DNA of 64,000 nt from the NCBI RefSeq assembly GCF_009914755.1, contig NC_060943.1; one strand, written 5' to 3'. Both the position numbers and the translations under genes were made by a program. Numbering within the stretch: position 1 is the stretch's first letter; the number at the start of each line of letters is the position of its first letter. Shown here one piece after another: positions 5,420 through 9,860 of the stretch. This stretch comes from the human T2T-CHM13v2.0 reference genome, Homo sapiens. The notes beneath the pieces are model-generated. The model did not search any database, was not told the origin of the DNA, and worked only from the letters and a program-made list of their open reading frames with translations.

Positions 5420-6145
5420 TTTTTTTTTTTTAATTGATCATTCTTGGGTGTTTCTCGCAGAGAGGGATTTGGCAGGGTCATAGGACAATAGTGAAGGGAA
5501 GGTCAGCAGATAAACAAGTGAACAAAGGTCTCTGGTTTTCCTAGGCAGAGGACCCTGCGGCCTTCCGCAGTGTTTGTGTCCCTGGGTACTTGAGATTAGG
5601 GAGTAGTGATGACTCTTAACGAGCATGCTGCCTTCAAGCATCTGTTTAACAAAGCACATCTTGCACCGCCCTTAATCCATTTAACCCTGAGTGGACACAG
5701 CACATGTTTCAGAGAGCACAGGGTTGGGGGTAAGGTCATAGATCAACAGCATCCCAAGGCAGAAGAATTTTTCTTAGTACAGAACAAAGTGAAAAGTCTC
5801 CCATGTCTACTTCTTTCTACACAGACACAGCAACCATCCGATTTCTCAATCTTTTCCCCACCTTTCCCCCTCCTCTATTCCACAAAACCACCACTGTCAT
5901 CATGGCCCGTTCTCAATGAGCCGTTGGGTACACCTCCCAGACGGGGTGGTGGCCGGGCAGAGGGGCTCCTCGCTTCCCAGTAGGGGCGGCCGGGCAGAGG
6001 CGCCCCTCACCTCCCGGATGGGGTGGCTGGCCCGGCGGGGGCTGACCCCCCCACCTCCCTCCCAGATGGGGCGGCTGGCCGGGCGGGGGGCTGACCCCCA
6101 TACCTCCCTCCCAGACGGGGCGGCTGGCCTGGCGGGGGGCTGACC
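5420..6145 (-). mobile_element. 5'-truncated SVA (partial VNTR, SINE-R, polyA), younger SVA_D-F-like, sense to ZNF91
   Basis: Poly-T 5417-5431, SINE-R, VNTR units GGGGTCAGCCCCCCGCC. TSD agaagtcttt at 5410-5419 and 6146-6155. GATTGAGAAATCGGATGG variant typical of younger subfamilies as I recall. Confidence 0.95.
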
Positions 6146-8357
6146 AGAAGTCTTTACTATCATAATGATGATGCTTAAAATCCTTAAAGATCTTCTATAG
6201 AATATTTAAAACAGAATAAAAATGGTAATTGTAGACACCAAAATCCCATTTTCGATAAATAGAAGATTCATATAAAAATGAATAAGAAAACAGAAAACCT
6301 AGACAACATTATACACTGATTTATCATTCTGCATATAGAGGAATACCTGAGAATGGATAATTTATTAAAAAACCAAGTTTATTTGGCTCACAATTCAGCA
6401 GACTGTATAAAAAGTCTGTGCCAGCATCTGCTTCTGGTGAGAGTGTCAGCAAGCTTACAATCACGGTTGAAGGCGAAGATTAACTGTACACACCACAAGA
6501 TAACAGACAGAGCAAGTACGAGGTGAAGGAGCCAGGTTCTTCTAACAAACCAGCTTTCATTTGAATTAATAAAGTGCACACATTTTGATTACCAAGAGGA
6601 TGGTGCCAAACTATTCATAAGGACTCTGCCCCATGACCCAAACACCTCCTACCAGGTCCGACATCTAACATCAAGAATTACATTGCAGCATAAGGTTTGA
6701 GTAACATCAACATCAATACCATATTATAGACCAACTAGGTTTAACAGACATGTACAAAACTTTTCAGTCAAAAGCAAGGGAATATGCAATATTTTTATTT
6801 GCACCTGGTGTATTCTGTTACGACACATACTAAGTTTTATTAAATTTAAGAATGCCAGGTGGGTGGTGTAGCTCATGCCTATAATCCCAACACATAGAGA
6901 GACCAAGGTGTGAGGATCACTTACAGCTAAAAGTTTCAGGCCAGCCTGGGCAACATAGTGAGACCCTATCCCTACAAAATAATCAAATAATTATTCAGAC
7001 ATGGTACTTTGTTTGTAGTCCCAACTACTTGAGAGACTTAGGTGGAAAGATAACTTGAGCCCAGTAGGTTGAGGCTGCAGTGAGTCAAGATTATGCCAAT
7101 ACACTCCAGCCTGGGTGACAGAGTAAGATCCTGTCTTCAAACAAAAACAACAAACACAAAAAAACAACAAATAAATTTAAGAATATCAATATTATCCACT
7201 TTGTGTTTTCTGACCAAAACTCAAACTGGAGATTAAAACTGAAAAATCCAAAAATACATGAAAATAAAAAACTCTTCAACATATTTTTGCACAGGAATAA
7301 AAAAATTAATTTTTCAAAGATGTCAATACAACCAACAGTGGTACACAAATTCAATAGAATCTTTATAAAAATCCCAACAGTAGTTTTTTAAAGAAATACT
7401 GTTTGAGATGTTAAAATTTTGTTACGAACTATAGCCAAACACCCATGGAAAAAAAACAAAGGCATTATAACTTCTGATTTTGAAACGTACTAAAAGCAAC
7501 AATAACAAAAACAATGAGGTACTCACACAGATAAACAGATGAAAGAACAGAGTAGAGAGGCCAGAAATGAACCCTTCTGTATATGGCCAAATAATCTCCC
7601 ACAAAATTGACATGAGCACACAATGGAAGATAACCTTTTCAAAAAATTCTGTTAGAAACTGAATATCCATTCTGATAAAATAAAGATTATTTCCTTAAAC
7701 CATATGTGAAAATCTTTTAATTAGACATAAGAAGGTAACTTTGTTGTTGTTGCTGTTTTGTTATTGTTGTTTTTTGAGATGGAGTCTCACTGTTACCCAG
7801 GCTGGAGTGCAGTGGCGCAGTCTCGGCTCACTGCAACCTCTGCCTCCCGGGTTCAAGCGATTACCCTGCCTCAGCCACCCGAGTAGCTGGGATTACAGGC
7901 ACCGGGCACAGCGTCTGGCTAATTTATGTATTTTTAGTAGAGACAGGGTTTCACCATGTTGGCCAGGCTGGTCTCGAAATCTTGACCTCGTGATCCACCC
8001 ACCTCAGCCTCCCAAAGCGCTGGGCGACGAGGCCCAGCCGCATAAATTTTTAATCTCTTAAACACATAGAGGGGAGGCAGGGCACTGTGGCTCATGCCTG
8101 TAATCCCAGCACTTTGGGAGGCTGAGATAGGTGGATCACAAGGTGAGGAGTTCAAGACCAGACCAGCCTGAACAAGATGGTGAAAACCTGTCTCTACTAA
8201 AAATACAAAAATTAGCCAGGCGGGGCGGCACGTGCCTGTAGTCTCAGCTACTCAGGAGGCTGAGGCAGAAGAATTGCTTGAACCCAGGAGGTGGGGGTTG
8301 CAGTGAGCCAAGATCACACCATTACACTCCAGCCTGGGTGACAGAGCGAAACTCCAT

Positions 8358-8413
8358 CTCTCTCTCTCTCTCTCTCTCTCTCTCTCTCTCTATATATATA
8401 TATATATATATAT
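8358..8413. repeat. Compound (CT)n(AT)n microsatellite at an Alu tail
   Basis: Direct reading. Confidence 0.9.
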
Positions 8414-9165
8414 GAAACACATGACATTAGTCTTGGTGCCAAATTCTTAGATACAACATTAAATGCATGAGCAACAAAGAAAAAAACCAGAATAATTTAA
8501 CTACACTACACTTCAAAATTTCTGCATACTTAAGTAAACATTTAATAGAGAAATAATGCCTCCTATAAAATGGATGAAAATATTTACAAATTACATGTGA
8601 TAAGTGTGAATATCCAAAAAATATAAACAACTTTTAAAACGGAACAATAAAGTTAAATAACTTTATTTAGAAATAAATAATTAAAATAAATTTTCATAAA
8701 AAAACACAAATAAAAAAACATTTGAAAGGACACACAAAATTACTAATTTGTAGAGAAATGCATTAAAATCACAATGAGAAACAAAATCCCCTCACACCCA
8801 CTTAAATGGTCACTATCCATTTTTTAAAAGCACCAAATCTCTTGATAATGCAATCAAAATGAAACCCTTGGCTGGGCACAGTGGTTCACACCTTTAATCC
8901 CAGCACTTTGGGAGGCCGTGGCAGGCAGATCACAAGGTCAGGAGTTCAAGACCAGCCTGCTAAACGTGGTGAAACCCTGTCTCTACTAAAAATACAAAAA
9001 TTACCCAGGTGTGGTGACGTGTGCCTGTAATCCCAGCTAGTCAGGAGGCTGAGGCAGGAGAATCGCTTGAACCCAGGAGGCAGAGGTTGGAGTGTGATAG
9101 GATCGTGCCATTGCACTCCACCCTGGGCGACAGAGCAAGAATTTGTCTCAGAAAAAAAAAAACAA

Positions 9166-9860
9166 CGCCCGGGAGGGAGGTGGGGGGCAGCCCCCACCCG
9201 GCCAGCCGCCCCGTCCGGGAGGGAGGTGGGGTGCGCCTCCGCCCGGCCGCTGCCCCGTCCGGGAGGTGGAGGGCGCCTCTGCCCGGCCGCCCCTTCTGGG
9301 AAGTGAGGAGCCCCTCTGCCCGGCCACCACCCCGTCTGGGAGGTGTAACCAACAGCTCATTGAGAAGGGGCCATGATGACAATGGCAGTTTTGTCGAATA
9401 GAAAAGGGGGAAATGTGGGGAAAAGATAGAGAAATCAGATTGTTGCTGTGTCTGTGTAGAAAGAAGTACACACAGGAGACTCCATTTTGTTCTGTACTAA
9501 GAAAAATTCTTCTGCCTTGGGATGCTGTTGATCTATGACCTTACCCCCAACCCTGTGCTCTCTGAAACATGTGCTGTGTCCACTCAGGGTTAAATGGATT
9601 AAGGGCGGTACAAGATGTGCTTTGTTAAACAGATGCTTGAAGGCAGCATGCTCGTTAAGAGTCATCACCACTCCCTAATCTCAAGTACCCAGGGACACAA
9701 ACACTGCGGAAGGCCGCAGGGTCCTCTGCCTAGGAAAACCAGAGACCTTTGTTCACTTGTTTATCTGCTGACCTTCCCTCCACTATTGTCCTATGACCCT
9801 GCCAAATCCCCCTCTCCGAGAAACACCCAAGAATGATCAATTAAAAAAAAAAAAAAAAGC
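9166..9860 (+). mobile_element. 5'-truncated SVA (SVA_B/C-like) inserted in the tail of an Alu, antisense to ZNF91
   Basis: VNTR 9166-9340, SINE-R ending gaatgatcaattaaaa plus polyA; GATAGAGAAATCAGATTG older-type variant; follows Alu 8869-9165 inside L1 sequence. Confidence 0.95.

What the first reader, a model, noticed from the sequence alone, without database searches (positions are those of the whole stretch)
5420..9860. The SVA repressor gene carries its own targets: candidate ZNF91 autoregulatory loop
Seen: two SVAs retaining VNTR units sit in ZNF91 intron 3, and a third lies upstream. Established: ZNF91 binds SVA VNTRs and recruits KAP1/TRIM28 and H3K9me3. Inference: ZNF91 protein could bind its own gene body and damp its transcription or elongation. 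When free ZNF91 is limiting (e.g. SVA load rises) repression would relax, giving a negative-feedback rheostat.
Basis: partly seen in the sequence, partly recalled or inferred. Interest (0 to 1): 0.8.

Follow-up and report, generated by a model that had tools for sequence, protein, structure and literature searches.

The report
Ordinary SVA insertions in ZNF91
The gene for the SVA repressor ZNF91 does contain two shortened SVA retrotransposons and has a complete one upstream, but they look like ordinary insertions in an SVA-crowded region, and self-regulation through them is an untested idea whose general form is already published.

Summary
Three genuine SVA insertions lie in the window, each with a poly(A) tail and target-site duplications.
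- E1 (5420-6145) is SVA_D, in the same orientation as ZNF91.
- E2 (9166-9860) is SVA_C, antisense to ZNF91. Both lie in ZNF91 intron 3.
- E3 (58439-60080) is a full-length SVA_C, 23 kb upstream of the ZNF91 start.

- E1 and E2 are cut off inside the VNTR. They keep 4-5 units plus the SINE-R and lack the Alu-VNTR border, where published ChIP puts the main ZNF91 peak. They retain one canonical VNTR-SINE border unit, which is a weaker, secondary site.
- The neighbourhood holds about 12.8 SVAs per Mb, so two copies in this gene are not unusual (P about 0.09).
- SVA-based feedback on KRAB zinc-finger genes is already in print (Haring 2021; Pontis 2019 for ZNF611).
- The sign of any effect is uncertain. 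ZNF91 loss raises some SVA-bearing host genes but worsens TAF1 expression in XDP.
- No occupancy or expression data for these three copies could be reached.

Verdict: most likely silenced passenger insertions. The self-loop is a testable new instance of a known kind, of modest interest.

The parts
5420..6145 (-). E1: 5'-truncated SVA (annotated SVA_D), in the sense orientation relative to ZNF91, in intron 3, 2.85 kb upstream of the zinc-finger exon 4. SINE-R 5433-5930; VNTR remnant 5931-6145 (about 215 bp, 4-5 units); poly(A) seen as a T-run at 5417-5431.
   Evidence: subfamily from van Bree 2022 Table S1; SINE-R 97-98% identical over its full length to 39 other genomic copies
5410..5419 (.). 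E1 target-site duplication, AGAAGTCTTT; the second copy is at 6146-6155.
5935..5962 (-). The single canonical VNTR-SINE border unit kept by E1. The same 28-nt unit flanks both ends of the E3 VNTR. It is a candidate secondary ZNF91 site, by inference only.
   Evidence: 0 mismatches; 0 of 100 shuffles gave any match; present directly upstream of the SINE-R in 27 of 29 close relatives of E1
5429..5434 (-). ATTAAA, the only poly(A)-signal hexamer on the ZNF91-sense strand inside E1. A T/GT-rich stretch follows on that strand.
   Evidence: no RefSeq exon or transcript end is listed here (hub annotation)
9166..9860 (+). E2: 5'-truncated SVA (annotated SVA_C), antisense to ZNF91, in intron 3, inserted into an Alu A-tail. 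VNTR remnant 9166-9345 (about 180 bp, about 4 units); SINE-R 9346-9845. Duplication AAAAAACAA at 9157-9165 and 9861-9869.
   Evidence: SINE-R 96-98% identical to 39 other genomic copies
9314..9341 (+). The single canonical VNTR-SINE border unit kept by E2.
   Evidence: 23 of 29 close relatives of E2 carry it at the same place
58439..60080 (+). E3: full-length SVA (annotated SVA_C) with hexamer, Alu-like region, VNTR of about 680 bp, SINE-R and A-tail. It lies 23.1 kb upstream of the ZNF91 start and 2.5 kb upstream of the LINC01224 start. It is the only copy with an intact Alu-VNTR border (unit at 58891-58918). Duplication AAAATGTTATT at 58428-58438 and 60081-60091.
   Evidence: best non-self SINE-R matches only 93-94%
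1..2570 (-). Part of ZNF91 exon 4: the zinc-finger array, seen as an 84-bp tandem periodicity at 1-2193. This is context: KZNF 3' ends are known heterochromatin targets, which would confound H3K9me3 readings over E1 and E2.
   Evidence: 26.1 copies, period 84; acceptor at 2570; the 3'-end heterochromatin point is recalled and was not tested here

Best explanation
These are three ordinary, independent, L1-mediated SVA insertions. They are roughly 10 million years old and fixed in an SVA-dense KRAB zinc-finger cluster.

The two intronic copies are 5'-truncated passengers. They are most likely kept as small silent patches by TRIM28, recruited through several KZFPs that bind the distal VNTR. ZNF91 would contribute weakly at most, through the one retained VNTR-SINE border unit. 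These patches sit inside the heterochromatin that already covers the 3' part of KZNF genes, and I expect little or no dedicated feedback on ZNF91 output.

Shown here: the identity, anatomy, orientation, independence and truncation of the copies, and the local SVA density. Inferred: the chromatin state and the lack of a specific regulatory role.
For: - Each copy has its own target-site duplication and A-tail, so there were three separate retrotransposition events.
- Only these three SVA copies occur in the window.
- E1 and E2 begin inside the VNTR and lack the hexamer, the Alu-like region and the Alu-VNTR border. Published ChIP puts the strongest ZNF91 and KAP1 signal at that border and reports that many unbound SVAs are shorter or truncated. 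[quoted passage not shown]
- Local density is 14 SVAs in 1.09 Mb, or 12.8 per Mb, so two copies in the 37.8-kb transcription unit has P = 0.085.
- In Haring's data, 112 of 303 expressed KZNF genes lie within 50 kb of an SVA that gained H3K4me3 after ZNF91 loss (figure legend). Proximity to SVAs is therefore typical of the gene family.
- The sequences are unremarkable. E1 has 8 private substitutions in 498 nt (a ninth is shared with 7 of 29 relatives) and E2 has 6 in 500 nt, measured against their 29 closest genomic relatives. The 'CAAT-TAAAAA' 3' end is shared by 23 of 60 loci examined, E1 and E2 included.
- RefSeq lists no exon or transcript end within 5420-9860 (hub annotation).
Against: - Both truncated copies keep the canonical VNTR-SINE border unit. 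That is where 59% of ZNF91-bound SVAs show a second peak, and ChIP coverage suggests binding throughout the VNTR.
- 88% of all SVAs are bound by ZNF91.
- Intronic SVAs can repress their host genes in a ZNF91-dependent way. ZNF91 loss raises CDK5RAP2, SCN8A and CHAF1B, and deleting the CDK5RAP2 and CHAF1B SVAs raises host expression; deleting the SCN8A SVA raised sodium current.
- Clustered KZNF genes rise together after ZNF91 deletion.
- E1 sits in the sense orientation, which is under-represented within genes, yet it has been retained.
- No chromatin or expression data for these three copies were available to me, so 'no specific role' remains an inference.
Confidence: 0.55

Rival explanations
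1. Enhancer-type feedback, mainly through the full-length upstream copy E3. When ZNF91 is limiting, SVAs in the cluster lose H3K9me3, gain H3K4me3 and H3K27ac, and act as enhancers that raise transcription of nearby KZNF genes, ZNF91 among them. This is the published cluster-level model applied to ZNF91 itself.
For: - E3 is the only copy with an intact Alu-VNTR border, the main ZNF91 and KAP1 site.
- ZNF91 deletion up-regulates clustered KZNFs lying within 100 kb of an SVA that gained H3K4me3. [quoted passage not shown]
- KZFP clusters hold KLF-responsive TE enhancers that their products later repress.
Against: - E3 is 23 kb from the ZNF91 start but only 2.5 kb from the LINC01224 start, so it may act on the lncRNA instead.
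- Haring et al. state that they could not show conclusively that derepressed SVAs cause the up-regulation.
- E3 is the most diverged copy, at 93-94% to its best relatives.
- Activated SVAs were mainly evolutionarily young ones (abstract), and E3 is an SVA_C.
Confidence: 0.2
2. ZNF91 binds the VNTR remnants of E1 and E2, recruits KAP1 and H3K9me3 inside its own gene body, and damps its own transcription or elongation. The result is a titratable negative-feedback rheostat.
For: - Each of E1 and E2 retains the VNTR-SINE border unit and 4-5 VNTR units.
- A second ZNF91 peak is seen at that border in 59% of bound SVAs.
- Intronic SVAs repress CDK5RAP2, SCN8A and CHAF1B in a ZNF91-dependent manner.
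Against: - The main binding site is missing, and truncated SVAs are over-represented among unbound ones. [quoted passage not shown]
- Many other KZFPs cover the distal VNTR.
- In the best-studied intronic case, TAF1 in XDP, ZNF91 protects host transcription rather than damping it.
- The co-occurrence is not unusual for this region.
Confidence: 0.1
3. An RNA-level effect that does not need ZNF91 to bind. Two forms are possible. (a) The sense-oriented E1 offers a poly(A) signal or splice sites that end transcripts before the zinc-finger exon, as reported for the SVA inside ZNF611. (b) E1 and E2, being inverted copies in one intron, pair into a long double-stranded RNA that is edited, retained or slows processing.
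For: - E1 is in the sense orientation with an ATTAAA hexamer followed by a T/GT-rich stretch, 2.85 kb upstream of exon 4.
- Pontis 2019 reports that ZNF611 transcripts are spliced into an internal SVA in naive hESCs. This prevents translation of the zinc-finger part, and the authors call it another KZFP-TE feedback loop.
- The predicted E2-antisense:E1-sense duplex has 656 paired bases at -1382 kcal/mol, against -356 to -379 kcal/mol for 3 shuffles. The arms are 98% complementary over 375 nt and 86% over 265 nt.
Against: - No RefSeq exon or transcript end lies within 5420-9860 among the 14 listed transcripts (hub annotation).
- E1 lacks the 5' parts of an SVA.
- Splice-site strength was not scored here, and no RNA data were available.
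Confidence: 0.08
4. Protective positive feedback. ZNF91 bound to the G-rich VNTR remnants prevents G-quadruplex formation or SVA activity that would otherwise obstruct RNA polymerase, as proposed for TAF1 in XDP. More ZNF91 would then favour ZNF91 expression.
For: - ZNF91 binds G4-forming VNTR sequence, and its deletion worsens the XDP molecular phenotype.
- E1 holds one strict G4 motif, at 6046-6063 on the minus strand.
Against: - E2 has no strict G4 motif and E1 has only one.
- The hexamer, which has the most pronounced G4 potential together with the VNTR, is absent from both copies.
- The VNTR remnants are short.
Confidence: 0.04

Closest known systems
SVA inside the ZNF611 gene (Pontis et al. 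2019, Cell Stem Cell; passages read)
   Same: A KRAB zinc-finger gene whose product targets SVAs carries an SVA inside its own transcription unit, upstream of the zinc-finger coding part. The authors describe this as a feedback loop between the repressor and its target.
   Different: In ZNF611 the mechanism is splicing of the primary transcript into the SVA in naive cells. For ZNF91 no such isoform is annotated, the two copies are 5'-truncated, and no data exist.
Cluster-wide KZNF up-regulation after ZNF91 deletion (Haring et al. 2021, Genome Res; sections 4 and 7 read)
   Same: SVAs lie in and around KZNF genes on chromosome 19. Loss of ZNF91 activates SVAs and nearby KZNF genes rise. The authors propose this as a way of sensing uncontrolled SVAs.
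   Different: That model is enhancer-based and cluster-wide, and its causality is unproven. It is not a self-loop through gene-body heterochromatin. In what I read, ZNF91's own SVAs are not discussed, and the supplement PDF could not be read.
Intronic SVAs that repress host genes through ZNF91: CDK5RAP2, SCN8A and CHAF1B (Commun Biol 2023; passages read)
   Same: An SVA in an intron, where ZNF91 loss or (for CDK5RAP2 and CHAF1B) SVA deletion raises host expression; SCN8A SVA deletion raised sodium current.
   Different: Going by the subfamily labels given in the passages I read (SVA_F, SVA_D, SVA_B), at least two of those copies are human-specific. The host genes are not the repressor itself.
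XDP SVA in TAF1 intron 32 (Rosenkrantz 2024 and Horvath 2024; passages and abstracts)
   Same: An intronic SVA bound by ZNF91 that influences host transcription.
   Different: The sign is opposite: ZNF91 protects TAF1 expression. That SVA is a full-length SVA_F with a hexamer.
KZNF autoregulation through binding to KZNF genes (Frietze 2010 and Yan 2017, seen only as cited in Haring 2021; O'Geen 2007 is recalled)
   Same: KRAB zinc-finger proteins and KAP1 act on KZNF genes themselves.
   Different: That mechanism works through the zinc-finger-coding 3' exons, not through transposon copies.

Membership tests
SVA retrotransposon | SINE-R domain | tested here: met
   All 39 non-self scored matches: E1 SINE-R 97-98% identical, 36 of 39 over all 498 nt; E2 SINE-R 96-98% over nearly all 500 nt. 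E3 is 93-94% identical to its 39 scored non-self matches.
SVA retrotransposon | GC-rich VNTR of roughly 35-50-bp units upstream of the SINE-R | tested here: met
   TRF periods of 49, 46 and 40 bp. GC is 78-81% in the remnants.
SVA retrotransposon | (CCCTCT)n hexamer and Alu-like region at the 5' end | tested here: not met
   Absent from E1 and E2, which are therefore 5'-truncated members. Present in E3.
SVA retrotransposon | L1-type insertion hallmarks: poly(A) tail and target-site duplication | tested here: met
   Duplications of 10, 9 and 11 bp for E1, E2 and E3.
ZNF91-bound SVA | [quoted passage not shown] | tested here: not met
   E1 and E2 start inside the distal VNTR. E3 has the border (unit at 58891-58918).
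ZNF91-bound SVA | VNTR-SINE border motif (secondary peak) | tested here: inconclusive
   The canonical border unit is present once in each of E1 and E2. The published motif exists only as a figure that I could not see, so equating this unit with the motif is inference.
ZNF91-bound SVA | Measured ZNF91, TRIM28 or H3K9me3 occupancy | not testable with these tools
   No ChIP tracks are available. Supplements of five papers were searched by coordinate. Only a RepeatMasker-type list and a full-length-only table holding E3 matched; searches gave no relevant match.
KZFP-transposon autoregulatory loop | A copy of the target transposon lies within or next to the repressor's own gene | tested here: met
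   E1 and E2 in intron 3; E3 23 kb upstream.
KZFP-transposon autoregulatory loop | The state of that copy changes the repressor's output (splicing, termination or transcription) | not testable with these tools
   No RNA or perturbation data. RefSeq lists no exon in 5420-9860 (hub annotation).

The most novel reading that the evidence does not exclude
ZNF91 may measure its own free concentration through deliberately weak sites. E1 and E2 lack the strong 5'-VNTR site and keep only a single border unit, so they would be the first of about 2,500 bound SVAs to lose ZNF91 when the protein is titrated by SVA load. Loss of heterochromatin in intron 3, or altered processing of the 680-bp E1:E2 RNA duplex, would then raise output of full-length ZNF91. 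That would amount to a sensitive homeostat built from truncated copies.
Probability: 0.07. Interest if true: 0.65.

Novelty: new member of a known kind. Interest (0 to 1): 0.3.

Why it matters
A working self-loop would explain how the dose of the main SVA repressor is matched to SVA load. That dose matters for X-linked dystonia-parkinsonism, where ZNF91 level modifies the molecular phenotype and falls with age. It also matters for the 19p12 ZNF91/LINC01224 association signals.

As things stand, the sequence shows only that the raw material is present. The same is true of many KZNF genes, and the idea is a specific case of feedback models already published.

Tried and rejected
**1. Gene conversion between E1 and E2.**
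- The lead: the arms are 98.6% identical over the 3' 358 columns of the SINE-R (353 of 358) but only 87-88% over the 5' SINE-R and the VNTR. E1-specific differences seemed to cluster, with 16 in 153 columns against 3 in 358.
- Why rejected: at 16 of the 25 columns where E1 and E2 differ, 27-29 of E1's 29 closest genomic relatives share E1's state. Only 8 columns are private to E1 and 1 is polymorphic. The boundary therefore reflects SVA_D versus SVA_C subfamily differences, not conversion or RNA editing.

**2. An unusual shared 3' end ('CAAT-TAAAAA').** It is common, found in 23 of 60 loci examined, E1 and E2 included.

**3. Strong G-quadruplex content in the remnants.** There is one strict motif in E1 and none in E2.

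**4. Coordinate searches of supplements for occupancy or chromatin data.**
- Barnada 2022: no relevant hit.
- Ward 2018: none.
- Horvath 2024: none.
- Fukuda 2022: only E3, because the tables are restricted to longer copies.
- Commun Biol 2023: only qPCR source data.
- Haring 2021: only an index file and a code archive were listed as readable (neither opened); the PDF is unreadable.

**5. Things that were unavailable.**
- Jacobs 2014 is not held, so its content is recalled.
- Earlier findings of this scan were not open.
- The paper reader closed, so the Pontis 2019 supplement was not seen. It holds gene lists after SVA silencing or ZNF611 overexpression, which might show whether ZNF91 responds.
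- Presence in ape orthologues could not be tested, because only the human assembly is held.

**6. Literature searches for a ZNF91 self-loop.** Searches returned listings of 96, 23, 15, 59 and 15 papers. In the listings and the passages I read, no paper describes SVAs inside ZNF91 as regulators of ZNF91.

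
Full report
**1. What is in the sequence**

The region 5420-9860 holds two SVA retrotransposon copies in opposite orientation, with about 3 kb of Alu-rich intron between them.

- **E1 (5420-6145)** reads on the minus strand as VNTR remnant (5931-6145), SINE-R (5433-5930) and poly(A). It is bracketed by a perfect 10-bp target-site duplication at 5410-5419 and 6146-6155.
- **E2 (9166-9860)** reads on the plus strand as VNTR remnant (9166-9345), SINE-R (9346-9845) and poly(A). It inserted into the A-tail of an Alu, with a 9-bp duplication at 9157-9165 and 9861-9869.
- **E3 (58439-60080, plus)** is complete: hexamer repeat, Alu-like region, about 680 bp of VNTR (16.7 copies of 40 bp), SINE-R and A-tail, with an 11-bp duplication.

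blastn of E3 against the whole window gives VNTR and SINE-R matches only at these three places. A published RepeatMasker-type table lists the same elements as SVA_D(-), SVA_C(+) and SVA_C(+) in both hg19 and hg38 (van Bree 2022 Supplemental Table S1, found by coordinate search). Orientation and spacing are therefore the same in three assemblies.

I checked the gene layout given by the hub. Exon 2 translates on the minus strand to a KRAB-A box. Exon 4 has a clean acceptor at 2570. The 84-bp periodicity of the zinc-finger array fills 1-2193. E1 is in the sense orientation relative to ZNF91 and E2 is antisense.

**2. How much of an SVA is left**

Both intronic copies are cut off inside the VNTR.
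- E1 keeps about 215 bp and E2 about 180 bp of VNTR, which is 4-5 units each.
- Both lack the hexamer, the Alu-like region and the junction between the Alu-like region and the VNTR.
- Each keeps exactly one copy of the 28-nt unit that sits at both ends of the E3 VNTR: 5935-5962 and 9314-9341, with 0 mismatches and no match in 100 shuffles.
- That unit lies directly upstream of the SINE-R in 27 of 29 close relatives of E1 and in 23 of 29 close relatives of E2. The retained border is therefore the canonical one.

**3. Are the copies unusual?**

The window's own assembly could be searched.
- The E1 SINE-R is 97-98% identical, over essentially its full length, to all 39 other scored copies.
- The E2 SINE-R is 96-98% identical to its 39.
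- E3 is only 93-94% identical to its best relatives.

A sharp change in E1-E2 identity first suggested gene conversion or editing. Identity is 98.6% over the 3' 358 columns and 87-88% further 5'. That idea fails. At 16 of the 25 differing columns, E1's state is shared by 27-29 of its 29 closest relatives. Only 8 columns are private to E1 and 1 is polymorphic. The boundary reflects subfamily differences.

Private changes are 8 in 498 nt for E1 (plus a ninth shared with 7 of 29 relatives) and 6 in 500 nt for E2. With a recalled neutral rate of about 1.2e-9 per site per year, this gives very roughly 10-15 million years. That agrees with the recalled ages of SVA_C and SVA_D and with the recalled date at which ZNF91 gained SVA binding (Jacobs 2014, which is not held). 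The shared 3' end is common, at 23 of 60 loci.

**4. Is the co-occurrence more than chance?**

The published table lists 14 SVAs between hg19 23.05 and 24.15 Mb, or 12.8 per Mb. The genome-wide figure is about 0.9 per Mb (2,883 SVAs).
- Two copies in the 37.8-kb canonical transcription unit has P = 0.0006 at the genome-wide density.
- At the local density it has P = 0.085, and 0.34 for the whole RefSeq span.

Haring et al. report that chromosome 19 KZNF clusters are exceptionally SVA-dense. They also report that 112 of 303 expressed KZNF genes lie within 50 kb of an SVA that became H3K4me3-positive after ZNF91 loss. Carrying or neighbouring SVAs is a property of the gene family, not of ZNF91 in particular.

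**5. What the literature says about binding**

- Haring 2021 (sections 4 and 7 read in full): 88% of SVAs are bound. [quoted passage not shown] 59% of bound SVAs show a second, smaller peak at the VNTR-SINE border, mainly in young subclasses. Coverage between the summits suggests binding along the VNTR. Many unbound SVAs are shorter or truncated.
- Rosenkrantz 2024 (passages): ZNF91 binds G-rich, G4-forming sequence.

E1 and E2 thus lack the main site and keep a weaker one that many other KZFPs also cover. By a strict G4 definition, E1 has one motif and E2 none. Occupancy of these two copies is possible, but I cannot rate it better than even. TRIM28 recruitment there need not depend on ZNF91.

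**6. Direction of any effect**

- Precedents for repression: ZNF91 loss raises CDK5RAP2, SCN8A and CHAF1B, all of which have intronic SVAs, and deleting the CDK5RAP2 and CHAF1B SVAs raises host expression, while deleting the SCN8A SVA raised sodium current (Commun Biol 2023, passages).
- Precedent for the opposite: in XDP, ZNF91 deletion worsens the TAF1 defect, so ZNF91 protects the host gene (Rosenkrantz 2024, abstract and passages).

**7. Is the idea new?**

- Haring 2021 already reports communal up-regulation of clustered KZNFs after ZNF91 loss. [quoted passage not shown]
- Pontis 2019 reports that KZFP clusters carry KLF-responsive transposon enhancers that their products later repress. 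It also reports that ZNF611 and ZNF28, both SVA binders, are spliced into an internal SVA or Alu in naive cells, which blocks the zinc-finger part. [quoted passage not shown]
- Pontis 2022 and Wells 2023 repeat the concept.

Five full-text searches turned up no paper, in the listings and passages I read, that discusses the SVAs inside ZNF91 itself. The specific self-loop appears to be unpublished, but it is a new instance of a known kind.

**8. Other cis effects worth naming**

- E1 is in the orientation that is under-represented within genes (Horvath 2024, passage).
- E1 carries the only poly(A)-signal hexamer of the two copies on the ZNF91-sense strand, followed by a T/GT-rich stretch. RefSeq lists no exon or transcript end there.
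- E1 and E2 would pair in the pre-mRNA into a duplex of 656 base pairs, at -1382 kcal/mol against about -360 for 3 shuffles.
- E1 lies 2.85 kb from the zinc-finger exon, so H3K9me3 over it would be hard to separate from the heterochromatin known to cover KZNF 3' ends. That point is recalled; Haring 2021 cites Frietze 2010 for KZNF autoregulation.
- If any copy mediates feedback, E3 is the better candidate because it has the intact main site. It is much closer to the LINC01224 start (2.5 kb) than to the ZNF91 start (23.1 kb).

**9. Verdict**

My best reading is silenced passenger insertions (0.55). The alternatives are:
- enhancer-type feedback through E3 (0.2)
- RNA-level effects (0.08)
- protective positive feedback (0.04)

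**Limits of this check**
- No chromatin or RNA data were available.
- No ape genomes are held.
- The Haring supplement was unreadable.
- The paper reader closed, before the Pontis 2019 supplement could be searched.

Noticed in passing
window about 5839-5843 (inside the E1 SINE-R): The bilateral-vestibulopathy GWAS variant rs8108073 (hg19 chr19:23,548,796, 3,269 bp from exon 4) falls inside the SVA_D copy E1, whose hg19 interval is 23,548,373-23,549,094. It lies at or next to a CpG where E1 differs from E2 and E3. The passages I read do not mention that it lies in an SVA. A variant inside a multi-copy element could be affected by cross-mapping, and the paper itself says its signal is driven by rs12185481.
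   Followed up: partly
window 5433-6146 with 9166-9845: E1 and E2 are inverted copies in one intron, 3 kb apart. The predicted RNA duplex in the ZNF91 pre-mRNA has 656 paired bases at -1382 kcal/mol, against -356 to -379 for 3 shuffles. It is a candidate long double-stranded RNA and editing substrate.
   Followed up: partly
window 58439-60080: The full-length SVA_C lies only 2.5 kb upstream of the LINC01224 start (55909, minus strand) and inside an intron of LOC105372335. It may bear on LINC01224, whose expression is linked to variants at this locus.
   Followed up: no
window 34849-34873 (minus strand): A strict G-quadruplex motif lies in ZNF91 intron 1, about 290 bp downstream of exon 1 and about 460 bp from the transcription start, inside the RefSeq promoter/enhancer element. 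ZNF91 is reported to bind G4-forming promoters, so this is a second conceivable route to self-binding.
   Followed up: no
window 47639-48072: A degenerate tandem repeat of 74-bp units (5.9 copies, 67% matches) lies inside LINC01224. It is not SVA-related and was not identified.
   Followed up: no
window 7758-8024, 8076-8360 and 8864-9165: Three Alu copies between and beside the SVAs form further inverted pairs, 78-82% complementary. They add to the double-strand potential of this part of intron 3.
   Followed up: no
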